Below are positions 3,123-27,267 of a DNA stretch of 64,000 bases, piece after piece. The notes beneath the pieces were generated by a model that saw only the letters and a list, made by a program, of their open reading frames with translations, was not told where the DNA came from and did not search any database. Within the stretch, counting starts at the first letter, position 1, and every line of letters starts with the position of its first letter. The translations under genes and the position numbers were made by a program. Source of the stretch: Escherichia coli (GTDB taxonomy: Bacteria; Pseudomonadota; Gammaproteobacteria; Enterobacterales; Enterobacteriaceae); NCBI RefSeq assembly GCF_017348835.2, contig NZ_CP071375.1; one strand, given 5' to 3'.

Positions 3123-4088
3123 TTACTTAACTTCCATCCCTTTCGCCTGCAAATCGGCGTGGTAAGAAGAGCGGACAAACGGACCGCATGCAGCATGGGT
3201 AAAGCCCATCGCCAGCGCTTCGGCTTTCATTTCGTCGAACTCATCCGGGCTAACGTAACGTTGAACCGGCAGGTGATGGCGGCTTGGCTGCAAATATTGC
3301 CCCAGCGTTAACATCGTCACACCATGACGGCGCAGGTCGCGCATTACTTCAATAATCTCTTCATTGGTTTCACCCAGACCCACCATCAGACCAGACTTGG
3401 TCGGGATTTCCGGATGCGCTTCTTTAAAGCGTTCCAGCAGCTTCAGCGACCAGTTGTAATCTGCGCCAGGCCGTACCTGCCGGTAAATACGCGGTACGTT
3501 TTCCAGGTTATGGTTGAACACATCTGGGGGCGTTGCAGTCAGAATATCCAGAGCACGATCCATTCGACCGCGGAAATCCGGCACCAGAGTTTCAATTTTG
3601 ATTTGCGGGCTTTTTTCCCGAATGGCAGTAATACAATCCGCAAAGTGTTGGGCACCGCCATCGCGCAGGTCATCACGGTCAACGGAGGTGATAACCACAT
3701 AACGCAGCGCCATATCGGCAATGGTCTGCGCCAGTTTCACTGGCTCATTGGCATCAGGAGCTACCGGGCGACCGTGGGCAACGTCACAGAACGGACAACG
3801 GCGGGTACAAATAGCGCCGAGGATCATAAACGTTGCTGTGCCGTGGTTGAAGCATTCCGCCAGGTTAGGGCAGGAGGCTTCCTCGCAGACAGAATGCAGG
3901 CCATTTTTGCGCATTGCGGCTTTGATGCCCTGGATACGTGTAGAGTCCGCTGGAAGCTTGATTTTCATCCATTCCGGCTTGCGCAGCAGGGCTTCGCGCT
4001 CTGTTGCCACGTTTTTAACCGGGATAAGGGCCATCTTATCGGCATCGCGGTATTTAACACCGCGTTCCATCACAATGGGTTTACTCAT
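3123..4088 (-). CDS. lipA: Lipoyl synthase (radical SAM)
   Basis: 321 aa; two Cys clusters ([15 protein letters not shown]) typical of LipA. Confidence 0.97.
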
Positions 4089-4296
4089 AGCGTGCGTGTT
4101 CCAGTTGCGAATTACGAAGGAAAGCGTTTCAATTCAATAGATTGTTGTAATTATCAACTATTTTTGAATTAACGACTGGCAGTATATCATTGAAACGGAC
4201 CTGAAAGCAGCCAAAGCGGTCGCGAAAATGTAAAATTGTTGTTGGATTGTGCCATTTTATCGTTCTGCGCTGTGATCTGGCTGTAACAATACTTTT

Positions 4297-5250
4297 TCAA
4301 AATGCATTACGTATAACATCTATTACTCCGTGCAGGATGGGATCACGCAGGCTGAATTTGTTGTAGTGGATAGAGAAATCTATTTGCTCCTCATTTAAGG
4401 ACGGAAAAGGCAGTTTTTCCAGCGGCCAGCAGCGGCTAAACAGGTTATAAAAACGGCTGGGAATAATCGCTAACATGTCACTGTTGGCAACCAGTGCAGC
4501 GATTGTCAAAATGTTGTAGCTGGTGAAATTGATTTGCCGGTCCGGAAACATCTCTTGAACTCTCTGCCGCAGACCGCTGAAATTTTGCCCTTCCGGTAAC
4601 AGGAGTACATGCGCAGCGTTGTCGATAGTCTCTCTGTCATCTTCTAAAGAGAGTAGTGGATTTCCCTCGCGGCAAATTAACACCATATTGTCGGTGAACA
4701 GAACATGATGTTGCACCGTACGATTGGTGCAAAACATGTTATCGATGATGAGATCGGTTTGAAACTGACTGAGTTGGTTTTCCGCGTCGCTGATGGGCGG
4801 GTTGCGCAGTAAAAGCTGCGGATAGTGAGTTTTAATCGCCCGATAGATGACAGGAAGGACCAGGGCTCCGACCGAGGGAGTGGTCGCAATAGTTATCGTT
4901 CGTTGCTTATCATAGCTTCCTTCGATATCCAGCGCGCCAAGAATGGACTCAAGGCCCTGACTGATATACTCATGTAGATGCATCGCAAATGCGGTAGGAG
5001 TGACACCCTGGCCTTTGCGAATAAACAATGGGTCAGGGAATATAACGCGCAGTTTCTGAATAGACTGACTGATTGCCGAGGGGGTCAGATTAAGCACTTT
5101 CGCTGCATTAACGATCCCTTTATGTACATATACAGCTTCAAAAATAGTCAGAAGGTTAAGATCAATATTTCGTAAGGTTGTAAATATTTGTGGTTTACCT
5201 TCTGACGACTTTCTGCTTAAACAGGGTTCAATTTGATTATTACTATCCAC
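4297..5250 (-). CDS. ybeF: LysR-family transcriptional regulator YbeF
   Basis: 317 aa; N-terminal LysR-type HTH (DLNLLTIFEAVYVHKGIVNAAKVLNLTPSAISQSIQKLR). Confidence 0.88.
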   Translation of the reverse strand: MDSNNQIEPCLSRKSSEGKPQIFTTLRNIDLNLLTIFEAVYVHKGIVNAAKVLNLTPSAISQSIQKLRVIFPDPLFIRKGQGVTPTAFAMHLHEYISQGLESILGALDIEGSYDKQRTITIATTPSVGALVLPVIYRAIKTHYPQLLLRNPPISDAENQLSQFQTDLIIDNMFCTNRTVQHHVLFTDNMVLICREGNPLLSLEDDRETIDNAAHVLLLPEGQNFSGLRQRVQEMFPDRQINFTSYNILTIAALVANSDMLAIIPSRFYNLFSRCWPLEKLPFPSLNEEQIDFSIHYNKFSLRDPILHGVIDVIRNAF

Positions 5251-5508
5251 GCACTTACTCCAATTTTATTCATGGAAAAATAATATTTAAAAAATTACAA
5301 TAATCTTATGTCTAATTGGAACGGAACGCTTTTGCTCACCATAATCAACTATTTCAATAGGTTAATCAATGGGGTGAGTTACGGAGCAAGGCGTAGCACC
5401 GCATTTCTGCAAGTGATAAAGAAAATATACAAACACGAAGGAGATGTAAAGCATTAGCAGGTATTATGAGTAATGACCCAGTGTAAATTGGGCCATTGAT
5501 GTATGGAA

Positions 5509-6150
5509 TTAAGTGGTAATATATTCGAAGTCAGGATTGTTTAGTAGCGCTAAAATATTTTCCAGTAAACGTGGAGCAATATTATTAGTCGTCGCTTCGG
5601 GTTTCCATTGTGATATTTTAGCCATTTCCATTCCGGCATACCCACAAGGATTAATACGTAAAAATGGTGAAAGATCCATATTGACGTTTAATGCCAGACC
5701 GTGGAATGAACAACCGCGTCGAATACGTAAACCCAGTGAGCAAATTTTCTTTTCCCCGACATAGACACCTGGCGCGTCAGCCCGAGGATGCGCTTCTATA
5801 CCCAGTTCAGCCAGGGTATTCACCACTGTTTGCTCAAGCAAGGTCACCAGTTCACGCACACCGAGTTTACGGCGTTTCAGGTTAAGCAACACATACATCA
5901 CCTGTTGCCCCGGCCCGTGATAAGTCACCTGTCCACCGCGATCGCTCTGGATCACCGGAATATCACCCGGCATTAAAATGTGCTCCGCTTTTCCTGCCTG
6001 CCCTTGGGTGAATACCGGATAGTGCTCGACCAGCCAGATTTCATCAAGGGTACTATCATCGCGGGTATCGGTGAATTCATGCATAGCCTGGGAGATTGGC
6101 TCGTAAGGCTGAAGACCGAGCTGGCGGACAAGAATTTTATCCTGATACAA
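5509..6150 (-). CDS. lipB: Octanoyltransferase LipB
   Basis: 213-aa ORF matches LipB. Confidence 0.93.
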
Positions 6151-19443: not shown

Positions 19444-20427
19444 CTACAGTAAATCTTCAGTCTCACGAATTTCCTGACTGACATCTCTGGTTCCGGATGA
19501 CTGAACTTTACGATACAGGTCGAGAGCCTGTCGGAGATCGACAGGTCTTCCTTCTCCGTAGTGATACATAATGGCCAGGTTATACCAGGCAGTGGCGTCA
19601 TTGCATTCAGCGGCTTTTGTAAACCATTCAAAGGCAGCCTGATAATCTTTCTCAACGCCTTGTCCGTGTTTATACATATAACCGATGTTGACGTAAGCGC
19701 CGACGCTTTCCTGAGCGGCAGCCTTCAGATACCAGTACATCGCTTGCTTATAGTCCTGGTCCACCCCTTCGCCAGCGTTATAATCCCATGCAATTTGAAA
19801 CTGGACGTGCCGATTACCCTGCTGTGCGCTTTTCAAATACCAGAATGCGGCGAGTGTCTCGTTTTGAGCAACGCCTTTTCCGTCTTCATAAAGATCGGCC
19901 AGATTGTTTTGCGCGTCACTATGGCCTTGTAATGCAGCTTGTTTGTACCAGAAAAATGCCAGCGTATAGTCTTGTGCGACTCCGTTGCCATTTCTGTACA
20001 TCCACCCAAGATTATTTTGCGCATAAGACATTCCGCTCTCCGCGGCTATCTGATACCAGGCAACCGCTTCTTTATAGTTGGGGTCTTCTCCACGATCCAG
20101 TATCCAGCCAAGGGCGTTGGAAGCGAAAGTATGGCCTTGTAGGGCAGCTTTTTTCAGCCAGAAGATGGCTTGCTCATTATCTTTATGACGGCTTTTATCC
20201 TCGGTATACTTTTGCCCTAAGGAGTATTGTGCTTCACAATGACCTTGCTCAGCGGCCAGCTTCAGCCAGTAAAAGGCCTTTTCGTCGTCCGGAGAGTCAA
20301 TTGCGCTATCGCGATTATAATAAAACCCAACAATATATTGAGCCTCGCAATCGCTTTTTTCAGCACGTTCGATAATCTTATCTATTGATAAATTATCGCA
20401 GCAACTTGACGTAAAAATCATTATCAT
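19444..20427 (-). CDS. ybeQ: Sel1-repeat (TPR-like) protein YbeQ
   Basis: 327 aa with about seven tandem Sel1-like repeats (AQxxLGxxY...G); no obvious signal peptide. Confidence 0.88.
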   Translation of the reverse strand: MIMIFTSSCCDNLSIDKIIERAEKSDCEAQYIVGFYYNRDSAIDSPDDEKAFYWLKLAAEQGHCEAQYSLGQKYTEDKSRHKDNEQAIFWLKKAALQGHTFASNALGWILDRGEDPNYKEAVAWYQIAAESGMSYAQNNLGWMYRNGNGVAQDYTLAFFWYKQAALQGHSDAQNNLADLYEDGKGVAQNETLAAFWYLKSAQQGNRHVQFQIAWDYNAGEGVDQDYKQAMYWYLKAAAQESVGAYVNIGYMYKHGQGVEKDYQAAFEWFTKAAECNDATAWYNLAIMYHYGEGRPVDLRQALDLYRKVQSSGTRDVSQEIRETEDLL

Positions 20428-20550
20428 TTCCTTATGGTTGCAGATAAAACATATTATATTTTTATGTGTTCCGTTTTTGCGTAAGTCTTATTTTATGCGT
20501 ATTATGTTGTGTCAGAAAAGTATAAATAAATGAGCCTCGTAATGTAGTTT

Positions 20551-20569
20551 ACATTCACTAAATGAATGT
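20551..20569. promoter_or_regulatory. Inverted repeat acattca-N5-tgaatgt just upstream of the ybeR RBS
   Basis: Perfect 7-bp inverted repeat read directly from the sequence in the AT-rich ybeQ/ybeR divergent region. Confidence 0.35.
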
Positions 20570-20584
20570 TTAAGGATAAATTAT

Positions 20585-21292
20585 ATGGACATGGAGTCGC
20601 AAAAAATATTGTTTGCACTTTCCACTCCGATGGAAATACGCAATGAATGCTGTTTACCTTCGCATTCATCCCCCAAAATGTATTTAGGTACATGCTTTTT
20701 TGACCTTTCTTCCTCCTGGGGAATTGATGACCGTGATGACCTGCTGCGCACAATTCACCGAATGATCGATAACGGTCATGCCGCTCGGTTGGCAGGGTTT
20801 TATCACCGCTGGTTTCGTTATTCTCCATGTGAATGGCGTGACTATCTTGCTGAATTAAATGAGCAAGGTCAGGCTTATGCGCAATTTGTCGCCAGCACAG
20901 CCGAATGCTGTGGTGAGGGGGGAATCAAAGCCTGGGATTATGTCCGGATGGGTTTTTTAAGCCGAATGGGCGTACTTAATAACTGGTTGAGTGAAGAAGA
21001 AAGTCTATGGATCCAGTCGCGCATTCATCTACGGGCTCTACGTTATTATAGTAACTGGCGGCAATACTTTGCCGGTTATACCTTTGGTCGGCAATATTGG
21101 CAGTCTCCCGAAGATGATCATCTGCAGTTATTACGCGAAATCTTAGCGCGTAAAGAATACGACGATTCCGGCAATGATATGTTTTATCAATTATTTGCCA
21201 GTGATGATGCGTATTACCCTACCTTGTCCTGGCAACCATTGGCTTACTATTCTGCATGCCCGGAAACGCTTAAGGATATGAGCGACCTATGA
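20585..21292 (+). CDS. ybeR: DUF1266-family protein YbeR
   Basis: 235 aa; paralogue of YbeU (23382..24089) with shared blocks ([18 protein letters not shown]); stop overlaps the djlB start (ATGA). Confidence 0.88.
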
Positions 21293-22716
21293 AAAATTGC
21301 TGGAAGATTCTCGAAATAGAGGAAACGACTGACGTCGATATTATCCGCCGCGCTTATCTGGCGCTGTTACCGTCCTTTCATCCAGAAACCGATCCGCAGG
21401 GTTTTAAACAACTTCGTCAGGCGTATGAGGAGGCGCTACGGATTGCGCAGTCGCCTGCTAAATCTGTTTGGCAACCAGAAGAATATGAGGTAGCAGAACA
21501 TGAAATTCTGCTCGCCTTTCGTGCGTTACTTGCCTCTGATAGCGAACGTTTTCTGCCCTCCGCCTGGCAGCGATTCATTCAGCAATTAAATTATTGCTCG
21601 ATGGAAGAGATTGATGAATTACGCTGGTCGCTGTGCACAATCGCCATGAACACTGCCCATTTATCCTTCGAGTGCGTGGTGTTATTAGCAGAAAGATTGC
21701 GGTGGTTGCAGGAGGAAAACGTCGGGGAAATAGACGAAGAAGAACTGGAATCCTTTTTATATGCCATTGCGAAGGGGAATGTTTTTAACTTCCAGACCAT
21801 TCTGCATCTGCCCGTTGCCGTGCAAAATGACACCATCGATTTTTACCAAATGTTCGCTCGGATTTGGTCATCGTATCCAGAATGGCTGACATTGTATTTA
21901 GCGCAACATCGCGCAGTGATTATCCCCGATGATGCAAAACTGCACAGAAATTTACTCCGCTGGTATAGCGCAGGTCGCCTGGGAATTCCCGAACTCCTGG
22001 ATTACGCCCGGTCGTGGCGGGAAGCTGAATCTGATAATGAAGATGCGCGTTATTATGAATACGCACAACGCGTCTATTGTGGAGAAGGCGAAAGCTTGCT
22101 GGCAGAACTTTGTGACTACTGGCGCGAGTATCCCTCCACCCAGGCGGATGCTTTAATATTGCAATGGTGCCGTCAGCATCGGGTCGATTATTACCCGTTA
22201 GTGGTGATGATGATTGAAGCTCGTGAACTGGTTAACGATCAGGGAAAACCGCTACTTTATATCCCCGGCGACAGCGCCCGTACGCGTTTTCATTTATACG
22301 AAATACTCAGCGATGAAAAACTCTCTGCGCTGGGGCGTTCTCTGGTCGAGATGGTTTTGCACAAAGGACGTAAGCCGCGGATCTCACTCACGCGTGATAC
22401 AGAACATCCCTTATGGCCATTATATTTAGTTGCCAAACAATTAGTGCAGGCCAGCCAACCGACAGAAGAATCATTAATGCCGATTGTGAGCCGCCTTGAT
22501 GCGGAAGATCGTTGTCCACTGGAAGCATTAATTATTCGTCGATTATTAATTCAGGCGGCGAATTTTACCGAGAAGCAAACTGTTGAACCGGAGCCGCAAC
22601 CGCAGCCAATGCCCGTTGACGATGGTGGGCCAGGCTGTCTGGGCATCATTAAAATTATTTTCTATATTTTTATCTTTGCTGGTTTGATAGGGAAAATACT
22701 CCATCTGTTCGGGTGA
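21289..22716 (+). CDS. djlB: J-domain co-chaperone DjlB (HPE variant, C-terminal membrane anchor)
   Basis: 475 aa; N-terminal J-like domain ([33 protein letters not shown]); C-terminal hydrophobic tail ([21 protein letters not shown]). Confidence 0.88.
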
Positions 22717-22725
22717 CAGTCGACG

Positions 22726-23280
22726 TTAATGTGCGGGAAGCCCGGCAAGTAATCTTTCCGCATTTTTGTAATGTTGTTTGGCGGCCAGTTTTAACCATTT
22801 TTGAGATTCATAATGGTTAACATTAATACCTGAGCCATTTCTGTAGATCAAACCTAAAGTATATTGAGCATGAGCATACCCTTGTTCAGCTGCTTCCTTA
22901 TACCAGAGAATTGCTTTACGGGTGTCGGGTTTGACCCCCAGACCTTTGAGGTAGATCCACCCCAGTTTACTTTGCGCGCGTGGATTTTCCTGTTCCGCTG
23001 ATTGCTCATACCAGTATCTCGCCTGTATATAATCCAGTGGTTTACCGTCGCTACCATGAAGATAAAATTCTCCAAGGCGATATTGCGATGTTGAGTGACC
23101 ATGAATCGCGGAAAGCTCCGTGGCTGCCGTGGTGAATGGAAGACTGCCCGGTGAGCTTAAATAATCAAAGGCATAATTCACCATGGCTTTATCACGCAAC
23201 GTTGTTTTCTTGGGTTGGCTAATACAGGTAATTGCTGCAACTATAAAAATTGCGAATATATACATTAATTTTTTATTCAT
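22726..23280 (-). CDS. ybeT: Sel1-repeat protein YbeT with N-terminal signal/anchor sequence
   Basis: 184 aa; hydrophobic N-terminus ([19 protein letters not shown]) followed by Sel1 repeats. Confidence 0.88.
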
Positions 23281-23381
23281 ATGTGAATACTTCGATTTTC
23301 TTTTTATTTTGAAAGCGTCAAGTTTATACTCATCAATAATAAAAAAGTAGTCAGTTAATGCACTTAAGGGATTATTAACAA

Positions 23382-24089
23382 ATGAATAAGGAAGAACAAT
23401 ATCTTCTTTTTGCGCTTTCTGCGCCGATGGAAATACTTAATCAGGGTTGCAAACCCGCGCATGACTCGCCAAAAATGTATACTGGGATAAAAGAATTCGA
23501 TCTCTCATCATCCTGGGGAATAAATAATCGTGATGATTTAATTCAGACTATTTATCAGATGACTGATGATGGTCATGCCAATGATTTAGCTGGCTTATAT
23601 CTGACATGGCATCGCTCTTCCCCTGAAGAGTGGAAAGCATTAATTGCTGGCGGCTCGGAGAGAGGATTGATTTATACCCAATTCGTTGCGCAAACCGCTA
23701 TATGCTGTGGGGAAGGGGGAATCAAAGCCTGGGATTATGTGCGGATGGGGTTTTTGTCGCGGGTTGGTGTACTCAACAAGTGGCTGACGGAAGAAGAGAG
23801 TTTATGGCTGCAATCGCGCGTTTATGTACGAGCTCACCATTACTATCACAGCTGGATGCACTATTTTTCCGCCTATTCGTTAGGGCGTCTCTACTGGCAA
23901 TCTTCTCAGTGCGAAGACAACGCTTCGCTACGCGAGGCGCTAACCCTGTACAAATACGATAGCGCCGGGAGTCGGATGTTCGAAGAGCTGGCAGCGGGAA
24001 GCGACCGTTTCTATGCCACGCTTCCCTGGCAGCCATTAACTGTCCAGCCTGAATGCCCGGTAACGCTTAAGGATGTGAGCAACCTATGA
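23382..24089 (+). CDS. ybeU: DUF1266-family protein YbeU
   Basis: 235 aa; paralogue of YbeR; stop overlaps the djlC start (ATGA). Confidence 0.88.
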
Positions 24090-25537
24090 AAACATGTTGG
24101 CAAATCCTCGAAATTGAAAGCACGACGCAAATAGACATTATCCGCCAGGCTTATCTTGCTCGCTTACCGTTATGTCATCCCGAAACCGATCCGCAAGGGT
24201 TTAAAGCATTACGCCAGGCCTATGAAGAGGCCCTGCGACTGGCGGTAAATCCTGTCGAGGAAGCAGATGATGAAGAAAAAGATGATGCCACTGAGCATGA
24301 AATACTACGTGTATTCAGGGCATTACTGGATTCAGAAAGTGATCGTTTTCAGCCCTCCGCCTGGCAGAAATTTATTCAGCAATTAAATACCTGGAACATG
24401 GAGGATGTCGATCAATTACGCTGGCCGCTGTGTGCAATCGCTATAGAAGCGCGATATCTTTCATTAAATTGTGCTTCTTTGCTGGCAGAGCGTTTGAACT
24501 GGCATTCGTTTAATGACAGCGAAGGAATAGATGAGGAAGAAAGGGAGGCTTTTCTTGAGGCCATTCAGGCTGGTGATTGTTTCGATTTCCTTGGCCTTCT
24601 GGAATATCCCGTTGCGTTGCAGAACCAGACTGTTGAATATTACTTCGCGCTGGAACGTTGCTGCCATTACCATCCTGACTATGTCACTGCGTTTTTGGCG
24701 ATGGAAGGTCCGTGGTTCATTCCTGATGATGCAAAGTTACATCGCAAACTGTTGCGCTGGTACAGCTCGGTGCAAACAGGTATGGCGGAACTCATTCCTG
24801 TTGCCCAACAGTGGCAAACGGAAGAACCAGAAAGCGAAGATGCCCAGTATTACCAGTGTACACAACGTTTGTACTGCGGCGAGGGGGAAAGCCTGCTTGC
24901 CGATCTCTGCGCGTACTGGGGAAGTTACCCATCTACACAAGCCGATAATTTGTTGTTGCAGTGGAGCGCACAACATTGCCCGGATTATTTCGCGTTATTA
25001 GTGATGGTTATCGAAGCGCGGAGCATGGTAGATGCGCAAGGTAAACCGTTGAAATATGTTCCTGGTGAGAGCGCCCGGACGCGTCTGTTATGGGCGGAAA
25101 TTTTACATAGCGGAAAACTATCGCCGTTAGGTCAATCGTTTATTGAGTCGTTATTCTTCAAACGCAAAGCATGGGCGTGGTGGAAATCGAGAGTCGGTAG
25201 CGAGACAGAGCAAGATTCACCGTTACTGGATTTGTATCGGGTAGCGGAACAGGTAGTACTTGAAGCGTTTCCGAAACAAGAGATGCTGGCCCGTCTTAAT
25301 ACAAGGCTGGAAGGTGGAGATGCTCATCCATTAGAGGCCATTATCACCCGGATGCTGTTGACGAAAGTGAAACTCGAGCCGGAGGATGAAGATGTCGATG
25401 AGCCAACACCTGAAAACCATGAAGAAAAAAATGATGAGGATGAAAAACCACAGAGCATTACCAGCATTATCAAAATCAGCTTAACGGTGCTGGTGATAGG
25501 TTATGCTCTCGGCAAAATCGCGATGTTGTTTAGTTGA
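24086..25537 (+). CDS. djlC: J-domain co-chaperone DjlC (HPE variant, C-terminal membrane anchor)
   Basis: 483 aa; N-terminal J-like domain (...[13 protein letters not shown]), acidic linker and C-terminal hydrophobic tail ([22 protein letters not shown]). Confidence 0.88.
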
Positions 25538-25596: not shown

Positions 25597-27267
25597 TTAT
25601 GGGATCTCAATGGCTAAATAAACGCTCGCCCGCCGCCTGACCTCATCGACGCGGGCCATATCGTTTGACTGCAACGCCGCATCAAAATCGGTGATCACCC
25701 GGCCAATCTCTTCTCGCTCGTCACCCAGCGCCCGCGCCCACAACTCTTCCAGTTTGGCTTTAAAGGTACGATTGATGAGCATATCGCGCGGATAAATTTT
25801 CAATGCGGATAACCGCGTCCGACTCTCTTCAATCTGCTGCGCGCTCAATGTTACCGGGCTGTGGTTAATCACTCTGGACTTAATGCTGCCGTCTTCCAGA
25901 AGCACGTCAACTTCAAGCAAACCGTTGATATCATAACTAAAGCGAATATCAATCGACTGATAAGCCCCGGTTTTCTTCAACGGCACATCGAAGGATTCCA
26001 CCAGAATGTTGTTTTTAACTTTGTGGTTTTCTCCCTGATAGACGTTAACCGTAATTGAATCCTGTTCCGGGTGCATGGTTGAATAAGTTTCTACACGCGA
26101 CACGGGCACAGTGGTGTTTCGTTCAATAATCGGCGAGAAAATGCCGGAAACGCCCTGACGGTTAACCTCAACGCCCAACGAGTAAGGGCAAATATCAGTG
26201 AGGATCACTTCTTCAATATCTTCACTGCGTAAGCGGCAGGCAGCCTGGATTGCTGCGCCCAGCGCTACAATGGTGCTCGGATCGTAACTTTGATACGGTA
26301 ATTTGCCAAACAGACGCACGGCGATTCGCTGCACCAGCGGCATTTGTGACGCGCCGCCAACCAGCACCAGACTGTCGATTTGACTCGGCTTCAGACGCGC
26401 ATCGCGCAACGCCTGTTCAATCGGCACTCGCAAGCGATTGAGCAGCGGCAACCACAAATCTTCCAGTTCGTTCTCGTAAAATTCGCATTCCCGCGTTTCA
26501 TCCTGGTACTGCCAGCGAATGTGCATTGGCGATTGATTGCTACATTTTGCCGCTTCCACACAGGCGTACAAGGCTGCCAGTTCACTCTCGTTAAGCGTGG
26601 TCCTGGCGACATCCGCGCGCTTTAAAACGTCATCGACCAACATATGGGTAAAATCTTCGCCACCGAGGAAGTTATCGCCAGCGGAGGCGTGAACTTCAAT
26701 CACCGGCGTGGCGTACTCAAGCACCGTGACGTCAAACGTGCCGCCACCGAGATCAAACACTAGCGAACGGGTATTTTGTTGGGTATGCAGGCCATACGCC
26801 ATCGCAGCTGCTGTGGGTTCATTAATTAAGCGTACCGCATTTAACCCGGCTAACTCCGCTGCTAAACGGGTATGCTTGCGTTGTTCATCGCTGAAATAAG
26901 CCGGAACAGAGATCACCACATCTTTAATCGGACGTTGCAGAAATTCTTCGGCATCTTCTTTTAATGAGCGCAATACCAAAGAGGACAGTTCTGGCGCGTT
27001 AAATGTGTCGCTGCCTAACCGCCAGTTGGTATTACTGCCCATTGCACGTTTAAATAACGCTGCCGTTTTATCCGGATGCGAAGTACGCCGTGATACAGCC
27101 GGTTTTCCGACTAAAATATGATTATTTTCATCCATGCTAATTATGGATGGTGTTAAATATTCACCGAACTTATTTGGAATTAATTGCGCGGCACCGTCTT
27201 TCCAGACGGCAATTAAACTATTGGTAGTACCGAGATCGATACCAATGGCGAGTTCTGCATTATCCAT
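25597..27267 (-). CDS. hscC: Specialised Hsp70-family chaperone HscC
   Basis: 556 aa; Hsp70 ATPase signatures (IGIDLGTTNS, DLGGGTFD); shorter than DnaK. Confidence 0.95.
   Translation of the reverse strand: MDNAELAIGIDLGTTNSLIAVWKDGAAQLIPNKFGEYLTPSIISMDENNHILVGKPAVSRRTSHPDKTAALFKRAMGSNTNWRLGSDTFNAPELSSLVLRSLKEDAEEFLQRPIKDVVISVPAYFSDEQRKHTRLAAELAGLNAVRLINEPTAAAMAYGLHTQQNTRSLVFDLGGGTFDVTVLEYATPVIEVHASAGDNFLGGEDFTHMLVDDVLKRADVARTTLNESELAALYACVEAAKCSNQSPMHIRWQYQDETRECEFYENELEDLWLPLLNRLRVPIEQALRDARLKPSQIDSLVLVGGASQMPLVQRIAVRLFGKLPYQSYDPSTIVALGAAIQAACRLRSEDIEEVILTDICPYSLGVEVNRQGVSGIFSPIIERNTTVPVSRVETYSTMHPEQDSITVNVYQGENHKVKNNILVESFDVPLKKTGAYQSIDIRFSYDINGLLEVDVLLEDGSIKSRVINHSPVTLSAQQIEESRTRLSALKIYPRDMLINRTFKAKLEELWARALGDEREEIGRVITDFDAALQSNDMARVDEVRRRASVYLAIEIP

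What the first reader, a model, noticed from the sequence alone, without database searches (positions are those of the whole stretch)
20428..20584. AT-rich divergent control region with a perfect inverted repeat next to the ybeR RBS
The ybeQ/ybeR spacer is strongly AT-rich compared with flanking genes. It contains acattca-N5-tgaatgt at 20551-20569, about 15 nt upstream of the ybeR start: a candidate operator or an RBS-occluding RNA structure. The ybeT/ybeU spacer (23281-23381) is similarly AT-rich with a gttaat-N12-attaac repeat.
Basis: seen in the sequence. Interest (0 to 1): 0.4.

Follow-up and report, generated by a model that had tools for sequence, protein, structure and literature searches.

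The report
Small palindrome before E. coli ybeR
The repeat is real: it is this strain's slightly damaged copy of a 21-base palindrome sitting just before the ribosome-binding site of the uncharacterised E. coli gene ybeR, inside an AT-rich region already reported to bind the silencer H-NS. Evidence that the palindrome does anything is only suggestive.

Summary
The window is E. coli, 100% identical to strain PE164 across the 801 bases compared. Positions 20422-20584 are the ybeQ/ybeR divergent spacer, with 26% GC.

**The repeat.** On its own it is not unusual: 14% of shuffles of the spacer contain an equal repeat.

**Orthologues show more.**
- The repeat is part of a 21-bp palindrome, AATATTCATT-N-AATGAATATT.
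- K-12's exact 35-mer around it, carrying a perfect palindrome, is present in at least 2911 of about 3825 locus-bearing E. coli genomes.
- All four bases occur at the centre position.
- The palindrome is kept in five other Escherichia lineages. It is absent in Salmonella, Klebsiella and two unidentified enterobacterial contigs.
- The window allele is a rare variant, found in 2 genomes. It carries one compensated pair (T-A to C-G) and one new mismatch.

**Evidence for function is weak.**
- Substitutions lean towards preserving pairing in the ybeR-sense RNA: 94% of cells pair on that strand against 87% on the other.
- The hairpin is weak (-3 to -6 kcal/mol) and its z-scores are not significant.
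- The Shine-Dalgarno sequence lies outside the stem.
- No Rfam family or known operator matches.

**Literature.** H-NS and RNA polymerase binding in this spacer is already published.

**Verdict.** This is an ordinary H-NS-type control region containing a possibly functional leader hairpin or operator. Low interest.

The parts
20422..20584 (.). ybeQ/ybeR divergent intergenic spacer: 163 nt, 26% GC.
   Evidence: RefSeq annotation of the identical strain PE164. Composition. H-NS and RpoD-holoenzyme SELEX sites are reported in the K-12 orthologue (PMC3946193).
20550..20570 (+). Footprint of the 21-nt palindrome: left arm 20550-59, centre 20560, right arm 20561-70. The window copy is TACATTCACT-A-AATGAATGTT, with 8 of 10 arm pairs complementary. 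K-12 has the perfect AATATTCATT-T-AATGAATATT.
   Evidence: Alignments. Population counts. RNAalifold picks it as the consensus hairpin.
20551..20557 (+). C at 20552 is one half of the compensated pair.
20563..20569 (+). Right arm of the perfect 7-bp inverted repeat (TGAATGT). G at 20568 is the other half of the compensated pair.
20558..20558 (+). Derived T-to-C change seen in only 2 of about 3825 genomes. It breaks one arm pair (C.A). The parent allele, in at least 56 genomes, has T here and is a perfect 9-1-9 palindrome.
20560..20560 (+). Centre base of the palindrome. All four bases occur among alleles: A in the window and E. fergusonii, T in K-12, G in B strains, C in O157.
   Evidence: pi 0.79.
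20533..20549 (+). Hypervariable stretch just upstream of the palindrome. 14 of 17 columns vary, with pi 0.275 against 0.05-0.08 in the flanks.
20572..20576 (+). ybeR Shine-Dalgarno AAGGA, 8 nt before the ATG at 20585. It starts 2 nt after the palindrome's last base (one base between them) and is unpaired in the consensus structure.
20477..20505 (+). Best conserved sigma-70-like promoter candidate for ybeR: TTGCGT-17-TATTAT, predicted start near 20512. This is a prediction only.
   Evidence: My own position-weight scan; conserved in all Escherichia alleles. The tool's stricter scan found none.
20486..20514 (-). ybeQ promoter predicted by Shimada et al. (CTGACG-17-AATAAG in K-12). The window has CTGACA at 20514-20509 and AATAAG at 20491-20486.
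   Evidence: PMC3946193, mapped onto the sequence.
20385..20394 (+). TTGATAAATT, a 9/10 match to the H-NS high-affinity motif TCGATAAATT. It belongs to a cluster of five matches with at most 2 mismatches at 20332-20399.
   Evidence: The motif itself is recalled from the literature, not tested here.
20573..20582 (+). AGGATAAATT, an 8/10 match to the same H-NS motif, lying between the Shine-Dalgarno sequence and the ATG.
20219..20219 (+). Only experimentally mapped rightward start assigned to ybeR in K-12: 14 reads, giving a 366-nt leader, located inside ybeQ. The whole spacer, palindrome included, would be transcribed from it.
   Evidence: PMC3415461 supplement, mapped through the indel-free alignment and the sequence.
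23281..23381 (.). ybeT/ybeU spacer, AT-rich.
   Evidence: SlyA and H-NS responsiveness from PMC5797941.
23354..23379 (+). GTTAAT-N14-ATTAAC repeat enclosing the ybeU Shine-Dalgarno-like AAGGGA. In the other Escherichia lineages the right arm is GTTAAT, or GTGAAT in E. fergusonii.

Best explanation
**The interval.** It is the AT-rich, H-NS-targeted divergent control region between ybeQ and the ybeR-djlB operon. These genes belong to an accessory, slightly low-GC gene block (ybeQ-ybeR-djlB-ybeT-ybeU-djlC-hscC) whose ybeQ/ybeR end is present in about 71% of complete E. coli genomes.

**The repeat.** It is this strain's slightly decayed copy of a 21-bp palindrome, AATATTCATT-N-AATGAATATT, specific to the genus Escherichia. 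The palindrome lies in the transcribed leader of ybeR, with one base between it and the Shine-Dalgarno sequence.

**Most likely mechanism (inferred, not shown).** In the ybeR mRNA it forms a small AU-rich 9-bp hairpin butting against the Shine-Dalgarno sequence. This would mildly tune ribosome docking (standby-site hindrance) or leader stability. It would not sequester the RBS. The main on/off control of both genes comes from H-NS silencing of the AT-rich spacer.
For: **Shown**
- Locus identity and gene order.
- AT-richness.
- Published in vitro H-NS and RpoD-holoenzyme binding in this spacer (PMC3946193).
- A cluster of H-NS-motif-like sites.
- The palindrome is perfect in K-12, B and O157.
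- K-12's exact 35-mer around it occurs in 2911 genomes.
- It is kept in E. fergusonii, E. whittamii, two unnamed Escherichia species and a divergent metagenomic allele.

**Pairing evidence**
- Two pairs show full compensation: T-A to C-G in the window lineage, with the U.G intermediate in Escherichia sp. E1V33; and U.G to C-G in MOD1-EC7003.
- There are 9 G.U cells on the ybeR-sense strand against 1 on the other. 94.4% of cells pair on the sense strand and 87.0% on the antisense strand.
- The covariation score is 0.236 against 0.184 +/- 0.021 in shuffles, reached by 9 of 500 shuffles.
- RNAalifold independently returns this hairpin as the only conserved leader structure, both in a 67-nt and a 105-nt alignment.
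- The left arm sits in a hypervariable zone (pi 0.275 just upstream) yet is about half as diverged (0.152).

**Transcription.** The only mapped ybeR start in K-12 lies 366 nt upstream, so the palindrome is transcribed (PMC3415461).
Against: - The hairpin is weak: -3.0 to -6.2 kcal/mol alone.
- Leader folds are no more stable than shuffles (z from -1.4 to +1.2), and the minimum-energy structures differ among alleles.
- The first covariation test, on 12 alleles, was not significant (74-110 of 500 shuffles). The second rests on two events and on related sequences.
- My event count (about 8 pair-preserving against 3 pair-breaking changes, p roughly 0.01-0.06) is post hoc.
- Complementarity runs right up to a single centre base. 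An RNA hairpin does not need this, and it fits a DNA-level constraint better.
- The palindrome is lost in contig L022, where ybeR is a pseudogene, and in all non-Escherichia orthologues. Only the right arm plus Shine-Dalgarno sequence (GTGAATAT..) is kept there.
- No transcription start has been mapped inside the spacer, and no expression data exist for arm mutants.
Confidence: 0.38

Rival explanations
1. The palindrome is a DNA operator for a dimeric transcription factor, not yet identified. It would repress ybeR-djlB by binding just upstream of the RBS, as a roadblock or by promoter overlap.
For: - It is a perfect 10-1-10, 21-bp palindrome in most E. coli, a typical operator size.
- Symmetry extends to the bases flanking a single free centre position, where all four bases occur. 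That is what twofold protein-DNA symmetry predicts and an RNA loop does not.
- The compensated change keeps both half-sites identical.
- A second repeat with the same TATTCA/TGAATA half-sites overlaps the ybeT start (23274-23289).
- Half-sites resemble the AcrR operator half-site TACATACATT: 7/10 in K-12, 8/10 in the window, 9/10 in the parent allele.
Against: - No regulator gene lies in the locus.
- There is no second copy of the palindrome in 64 kb.
- Non-coli Escherichia carry one to three asymmetric arm positions, all of the G.T type.
- The ybeT-proximal repeat has different spacing (N4 against N5) and is absent from the other Escherichia clades.
- Spacing is 1 bp against 4 bp in the AcrR site, and as a contiguous 24-mer there are at least 12 mismatches, which is background level.
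- No SlyA TTA-N6-TAA site is present.
Confidence: 0.25
2. The palindrome has no function. It is a chance palindrome in AT-rich DNA that persists through shared ancestry. Replication template-switching within quasi-palindromes (as described at the thyA hotspot, recalled from my own knowledge) may copy a change from one arm to the other and so mimic compensation.
For: - The window repeat is unremarkable: 14% of shuffles match it. Even the K-12 form has P of about 0.009 per spacer of this composition, so some are expected genome-wide.
- The right arm diverges only slightly more than the background (pi 0.095 against 0.05-0.08), and the left arm diverges more than background.
- Thermodynamic and covariation statistics are weak.
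- The element is absent outside Escherichia.
- The genes are poorly expressed, often pseudogenised, and absent from 29% of genomes, so fine-tuning selection should be weak.
Against: - The palindrome is retained across six Escherichia lineages although it sits next to the most variable 17 nt of the region.
- The excess of G.U-compatible changes on one strand (9 cells against 1) is not predicted by template switching.
- Two independent compensations occurred, at different pairs.
Confidence: 0.3
3. One reading: an RBS-occluding hairpin, in the style of a thermometer or riboswitch, that hides the ybeR Shine-Dalgarno sequence or start codon.
For: In the window allele only, the minimum-energy fold extends the hairpin by pairing 20542-20550 with 20578-20586. 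This encloses the Shine-Dalgarno sequence in an internal loop and pairs the start of the AUG.
Against: - That extension uses the hypervariable segment and is not conserved. The consensus structure leaves the Shine-Dalgarno sequence free.
- z = -0.77.
- No Rfam match even at E <= 10.
Confidence: 0.05

Closest known systems
H-NS-silenced, SlyA/LeuO-countersilenced AT-rich divergent promoter regions of E. coli (for example hlyE, the cas operon, and the neighbouring ybeT / ybeU-djlC pair)
   Same: - AT-rich spacer (26% GC) between divergent, poorly expressed accessory genes.
- An H-NS SELEX site and a holoenzyme site are reported in this very spacer (PMC3946193).
- The paralogous spacer responds to SlyA over-expression and is on H-NS regulon lists (PMC5797941).
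   Different: - No SlyA consensus (TTA-N6-TAA) occurs in either spacer.
- H-NS binding in vivo at ybeQ/ybeR, and its effect on expression, were not checked here.
- H-NS silencing does not explain a sequence-specific palindrome.
Leader hairpins placed directly upstream of a Shine-Dalgarno sequence (standby-site hindrance or 5'-leader stabilisers; general mechanism recalled from the translation-initiation literature)
   Same: - A hairpin with a 9-bp stem and 3-nt loop, with one base between it and the Shine-Dalgarno sequence, which stays single-stranded.
- Compensatory and G.U-type substitutions occur on the mRNA strand.
   Different: - Very weak stem, all A-U pairs but one.
- Not more stable than shuffled sequence.
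- The transcript 5' end is unknown.
- No experimental link to translation.
AcrR (TetR-family) operator of acrAB: TACATACATT-TGTG-AATGTATGTA
   Same: - 10-bp AT-rich inverted half-sites.
- Half-site identity is 9/10 in the parent of the window allele, 8/10 in the window and 7/10 in K-12.
   Different: - The centre spacer is 1 bp, not 4 bp.
- As a contiguous 24-mer there are at least 12 mismatches, no better than background in this window.
- 7/10 half-site matches occur about 300 times in the 64 kb counted on both strands.
Quasi-palindrome template-switch mutation hotspots (E. coli thyA; recalled from my own knowledge)
   Same: A short, nearly perfect palindrome in which a change in one arm is matched in the other.
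   Different: The G.T-type intermediates persist in whole lineages and are biased to one strand. No mutation-rate data exist for this site.

Membership tests
H-NS-bound AT-rich silenced region | AT-rich tract markedly below the GC content of the flanking genes | tested here: met
   The spacer is 26% GC against 43-49% in the flanks.
H-NS-bound AT-rich silenced region | Matches to the high-affinity nucleation motif TCGATAAATT | tested here: inconclusive
   Six matches with at most 2 mismatches fall within 20332-20582, including TTGATAAATT (9/10) and AGGATAAATT (8/10). Such matches are expected to be enriched in any AT-rich tract.
H-NS-bound AT-rich silenced region | Demonstrated H-NS occupancy and derepression in an hns mutant | not testable with these tools
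   An in vitro genomic SELEX site in the K-12 spacer is reported in PMC3946193. In vivo occupancy and derepression for ybeQ/ybeR were not found in the searchable literature.
Curated cis-regulatory RNA (Rfam) | Covariance-model match at or near the gathering score | tested here: not met
   Only three chance-level hits (E 0.8-7.3, 15-21 bits against gathering scores of 56-70), none over the palindrome. The same holds for the ybeT/ybeU spacer.
RBS-sequestering hairpin / RNA thermometer | Shine-Dalgarno sequence or start codon base-paired within the conserved stem | tested here: not met
   The consensus stem covers 20550-20570. The Shine-Dalgarno sequence at 20572-76 is unpaired in RNAalifold consensus structures.
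Structured RNA element (general) | Fold more stable than shuffled sequence | tested here: not met
   z-scores run from -1.41 to +1.15 for 11 orthologous leaders. The hairpin alone is -3.0 to -6.2 kcal/mol.
Structured RNA element (general) | Covariation supporting the helix | tested here: inconclusive
   Two compensated pairs and 9 G.U cells. Shuffles reach the observed score in 74-110 of 500 or 9 of 500. The sense strand pairs in 94.4% of cells and the antisense strand in 87.0%. The sequences are few and related.
Intrinsic terminator | GC-rich stem followed by a T-run | tested here: not met
   No terminator-like sites in 20300-20700. The stem has a single G-C pair.
Dimeric transcription-factor operator (generic) | Twofold-symmetric site of about 16-24 bp near the promoter or RBS | tested here: met
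   Perfect 10-1-10 palindrome in K-12, B and O157.
Dimeric transcription-factor operator (generic) | Identified cognate factor, or recurrence of the site at other promoters | tested here: not met
   No second copy with at most 3 mismatches in the 64-kb window, and no regulator gene in the locus. A genome-wide motif scan was not possible with these tools.
AcrR operator | Two 10-bp inverted repeats TACATACATT separated by 4 bp | tested here: not met
   Half-sites match 7-9/10, but the spacer is 1 bp. The best contiguous 24-mer alignment over the palindrome has at least 12 mismatches.
SlyA binding site | TTA-N6-TAA | tested here: not met
   None of the 12 matches in the window lies in either spacer, and the total is at chance level.
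Sigma-70 promoter in the spacer | -35 and -10 hexamers with 16-18 bp spacing, plus a mapped start | tested here: inconclusive
   The tool scan found 0. My relaxed scan gives a conserved TTGCGT-17-TATTAT. Holoenzyme SELEX binding is reported (PMC3946193). The one searchable TSS data set has no start inside the spacer.

The most novel reading that the evidence does not exclude
The 21-bp palindrome, perhaps together with the TATTCA-N4-TGAATA repeat over the ybeT start, is the recognition site of an unidentified regulator, either protein or RNA-level. That regulator would switch on the otherwise cryptic HscC chaperone island (ybeQ-ybeR-djlB-ybeT-ybeU-djlC-hscC). The hypervariable centre and upstream flank would then reflect lineage-specific retuning.
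Probability: 0.12. Interest if true: 0.45.

Novelty: new member of a known kind. Interest (0 to 1): 0.22.

Why it matters
**If the palindrome is functional.** It would give the first cis-regulatory handle on ybeR-djlB. This operon is part of the poorly understood third Hsp70 system of E. coli (HscC with the J-proteins DjlB and DjlC), whose inducing conditions are unknown.

**If it is not functional.** The result is still useful. The region is an ordinary H-NS-type AT-rich spacer already catalogued by genomic SELEX. It also shows that a 'perfect inverted repeat next to an RBS' read from a single strain can be a decayed copy of a larger element.

Tried and rejected
- **Rfam:** scans of both spacers at E <= 10 gave only chance hits.
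- **Promoter and terminator scan:** nothing at the tool's thresholds.
- **Second copy of the palindrome:** none in the window.
- **Known binding sites:**
  - SlyA consensus: absent from both spacers.
  - AcrR operator: half-sites are similar but the spacing is wrong and the contiguous match is at background level.
  - ArgR, NsrR, Fur, KdgR, RcsAB and LysR-type T-N11-A motifs were compared from memory only. Each fails on half-site order, spacing or core bases, and none is claimed.
- **Shared operator in both spacers (TATTCA/TGAATA at 23274-89):** rejected as evidence. The spacing differs and it is absent from E. whittamii, E1V33 and MOD1.
- **Cross-species sampling:** the genome-contig scan with a YbeR/YbeU profile returned only 5 loci. 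The metagenome DNA-pattern scan returned 3, of which one was useful.
- **TSS data:** one paper was not held. One had no text supplements. The Cappable-seq GTF is cut before 676 kb. One had no entry for these genes. Only Kim et al. 2012 gave starts.
- **Genome-wide motif search for a regulon:** not feasible, because BLAST against 28 Gb cannot detect matches of about 20 nt.

Full report
**1. Where we are**

An 801-bp probe around the finding is 100% identical to E. coli strain PE164 and 96.7% identical to K-12. 3866 of 5426 complete E. coli genomes carry the locus. RefSeq annotation of the identical strain gives, in window coordinates:

| Gene | Coordinates | Strand | Product |
|---|---|---|---|
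| ybeQ | 19444-20421 | - | Sel1-repeat protein |
| ybeR | 20585-21292 | + | DUF1266 |
| djlB | 21289-22716 | + | J-domain protein |
| ybeT | 22726-23280 | - | Sel1/TPR |
| ybeU | 23382-24089 | + | DUF1266 |
| djlC | 24086-25537 | + | co-chaperone |
| hscC | 25597-27267 | - | Hsp70 |

The annotated ybeQ start is 20421, which has the better Shine-Dalgarno spacing, and not the upstream in-frame ATG at 20427. The spacer is thus 20422-20584.

**2. The observation**

- ACATTCA (20551-57) and TGAATGT (20563-69) are perfectly complementary with a 5-nt gap.
- The Shine-Dalgarno AAGGA is at 20572-76 and the ATG at 20585.
- The spacer is 26% GC, against 43-49% in the flanking genes.
- The ybeU-proximal repeat exists but is GTTAAT-N14-ATTAAC, not N12.
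- As a single-sequence statistic the ybeR repeat is unremarkable. 14% of dinucleotide-preserving shuffles of the spacer contain an equal or better perfect repeat, and 3% have one within the last 45 nt.

**3. What the orthologues show**

I aligned K-12, B, O157, O145 and other E. coli. I then added E. fergusonii, E. whittamii, Escherichia sp. E1V33 and MOD1-EC7003, and a divergent metagenomic allele.

*A larger palindrome.* The 7-bp repeat is the intact core of a 21-nt palindrome, AATATTCATT-N-AATGAATATT (window 20550-20570). It is perfect (10-1-10) in K-12, B and O157.

*Population frequency.*
- K-12's exact 35-mer around it occurs in 2911 genomes.
- 330 more genomes differ by one base. The sampled O157-type differs only at the centre.
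- 497 fall in the 90-95% identity band. The sampled B-type alleles are also perfect.

*The centre base.* It is A in the window and E. fergusonii, T in K-12, G in B strains and C in O157.

*The window allele is rare.*
- Only 2 genomes carry it exactly.
- At least 56 genomes carry its parent, TACATTCATT-A-AATGAATGTT, a perfect 9-1-9 palindrome.
- Relative to K-12, the parent has T-A replaced by C-G at arm position 3, a compensated double change.
- The window strain then acquired a private T-to-C change at 20558 that breaks one pair.

*Outside Escherichia.* The left arm is gone in Salmonella, Klebsiella spallanzanii, and contigs L016 and L023. It is also gone in L022, an Escherichia-like contig where ybeR is a pseudogene. 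Only the right arm plus Shine-Dalgarno sequence (GTGAATAT...AAGGA) is recognisable there, and only in some of them.

**4. Is the palindrome under constraint?**

*Diversity.* The 17 nt just upstream (20533-49) are the most variable part of the region:

| Segment | pi |
|---|---|
| 17 nt upstream of the palindrome | 0.275 |
| Left arm | 0.152 |
| Centre base | 0.79 |
| Right arm | 0.095 |
| Background (rest of spacer and coding flanks) | 0.05-0.08 |

14 of the 17 upstream columns vary. The left arm is thus partly protected inside a hypervariable zone, while the right arm diverges only slightly more than everything else.

*Pair counts on 12 alleles.*
- 94.4% of cells pair on the ybeR-sense strand against 87.0% on the opposite strand.
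- There are 9 G.U cells on the sense strand against 1 on the other.
- Two pairs show full compensation.
- The covariation score is 0.236 against 0.184 +/- 0.021 in shuffles, reached by 9 of 500 shuffles.
- An earlier allele set gave a non-significant result, with 74-110 of 500 shuffles reaching the observed values.
- The tool itself warns that related sequences inflate such numbers.

*My own event count.* A parsimony tally gives about 8 pair-preserving against 3 pair-breaking changes. This corresponds to p of roughly 0.01-0.06 depending on the assumed transition share, and it is post hoc.

*Structure prediction.* RNAalifold independently predicts this hairpin as the only conserved leader structure in a 67-nt and a 105-nt alignment. 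The consensus energy of the hairpin is only -4.7 kcal/mol. Single-allele hairpins are -3.0 to -6.2 kcal/mol. Full-leader folds are no better than shuffles, with z from -1.4 to +1.2, and differ between alleles.

*Bottom line.* Constraint on pairing is suggested, not demonstrated.

**5. Transcription context**

- The tool's promoter scan finds nothing.
- A relaxed weight-matrix scan gives a well-conserved TTGCGT-17-TATTAT (20477-20505), with a predicted start near 20512.
- Shimada et al. predicted CTGACG-17-AATAAG for ybeQ. They reported an RpoD-holoenzyme SELEX peak and an H-NS SELEX site in this spacer (PMC3946193).
- The only searchable TSS data set (Kim et al. 2012, PMC3415461 supplement) has no start in the spacer.
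  - It lists a weak rightward start 366 nt upstream of ybeR, inside ybeQ (window about 20219; 14 reads).
  - It lists a weak leftward start inside ybeR (window about 21038; 6 reads).
- Whichever start is used, the palindrome is in the ybeR leader.
- Matches to the H-NS nucleation motif cluster at 20332-20399 and at 20573-82, as expected for an AT-rich tract.
- ybeT and ybeU-djlC rise 4.1- and 2.8-fold on SlyA over-expression and are on H-NS regulon lists (PMC5797941). Neither spacer contains TTA-N6-TAA.

**6. Mechanism**

The well-supported part is that this is an H-NS-type AT-rich divergent control region of a poorly expressed accessory locus. For the palindrome I weigh three readings.

*(a) A small AU-rich hairpin in the ybeR leader, with one base between it and the Shine-Dalgarno sequence. 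Confidence 0.38.*
- It would hinder ribosome docking at the standby site or stabilise the leader.
- In favour: strand-biased G.U changes, two compensations, and the RNAalifold consensus.
- Against: weak energy, weak statistics, and symmetry that runs to a single centre base.

*(b) An operator for an unknown dimeric factor. Confidence 0.25.*
- In favour: perfect 10-1-10 symmetry, a free centre base, and typical operator size.
- Against: no regulator, no second site, and asymmetric arms in other species.

*(c) A functionless palindrome. Confidence 0.30.*
- It would be kept by shared ancestry and perhaps by quasi-palindrome template switching.

An allele-specific extension in the window strain uses the hypervariable segment and is not conserved.

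**7. Comparison with known systems**

- No Rfam family matches, and the element is not a terminator.
- The half-sites resemble the AcrR operator (TACATACATT-TGTG-AATGTATGTA; PMC10597343) at 7-9 of 10 positions. The spacer is 1 bp instead of 4, and the contiguous match is at background level. It is not an AcrR site.
- It works like, at most, a leader hairpin or a generic palindromic operator. It is a member of no defined family.

**8. The ybeT/ybeU part of the finding**

- The spacer is almost invariant within E. coli.
- In E. whittamii, E1V33 and MOD1 the right arm is GTTAAT. This is a direct repeat at the DNA level, and G.U-compatible in RNA. Pairing is broken in MOD1 and in E. fergusonii, where the right arm reads GTGAAT.
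- A 6-bp stem with a 14-nt loop has no meaningful stability. I treat it as chance.

**9. Verdict**

The RBS-occlusion idea is unsupported. The palindrome itself is an undescribed, Escherichia-specific element with suggestive but weak evidence of constraint. Interest is low to moderate.

Noticed in passing
window 20533-20560: A 28-nt hypervariable patch covers the stretch before the palindrome, the left arm and the centre. Pi is 0.15-0.79 against 0.05-0.08 around it. The 71 nt around the repeat are only 87% identical to K-12, while the surrounding 801 nt are 96.7% identical. The window allele resembles E. fergusonii here, which suggests old polymorphism or introgression.
   Followed up: partly
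window 20562-20573: A mini-ORF, ATG AAT GTT TAA, overlaps the right arm, and its stop codon overlaps the ybeR Shine-Dalgarno sequence. In other Escherichia and in L016 it reads GTG AAT ATT TAA, so the a/g difference at arm position R2 keeps a start codon. It has no Shine-Dalgarno sequence of its own, and it may be accidental.
   Followed up: no
window 23358-23378: A six-codon upstream ORF (ATG CAC TTA AGG GAT TAT TAA) ends 3 nt before the ybeU ATG and contains its Shine-Dalgarno sequence. The frame and stop are kept in three of the four other Escherichia lineages aligned (E. whittamii, E1V33, MOD1), despite three amino-acid changes. E. fergusonii has a 1-nt deletion near the 3' end.
   Followed up: no
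window 23274-23289: TATTCA-N4-TGAATA overlaps the ybeT start codon and has the same half-sites as the ybeR palindrome. It is present in E. coli and E. fergusonii but not in E. whittamii, E1V33 or MOD1.
   Followed up: yes
L003 (E. coli C43(DE3), a B strain) 3556-5710: ybeR is followed directly by a frameshifted djlC. djlB, ybeT and ybeU are missing, apparently through recombination between the paralogous modules. ybeQ carries an internal stop in the B strain and in O157:H7, and djlC has an internal stop in O157:H7. The island is decaying in several lineages.
   Followed up: no
window ~20219 (+) and ~21038 (-): The only mapped K-12 starts for ybeR and ybeQ lie inside each other's coding regions, giving 366-nt and 617-nt leaders (PMC3415461). 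The two transcripts would overlap over about 800 nt as an antisense pair. TATAAT at 21050-21045 fits the leftward start.
   Followed up: partly
window 20474-20501: A direct repeat, TTTTTGCGTA / TTTATGCGTA, spaced 18 nt apart. It lies inside the conserved promoter-like TTGCGT-17-TATTAT.
   Followed up: no
L018 (metagenome contig OGXJ01000705.1): A mosaic allele. The ybeT/ybeU spacer is 98% identical to E. coli, but the start of the ybeR coding sequence resembles E. whittamii, and the region upstream of ybeR is a divergent allele unlike K-12.
   Followed up: no
L013 (Paenibacillus sp. USDA918EY contig end): A fragment 58% identical to YbeR sits at the end of a contig labelled Paenibacillus. This could be contamination or horizontal transfer.
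   Followed up: no
window 21577-21591 and 24374-24388: The identical 15-mer ATTCAGCAATTAAAT occurs in djlB and in djlC, reflecting the paralogy of the two ybeR-djlB / ybeU-djlC modules.
   Followed up: no
E. coli genome search: Two of the 3884 matching places are on plasmids, and about 29% of complete E. coli genomes lack the ybeQ/ybeR junction altogether.
   Followed up: no
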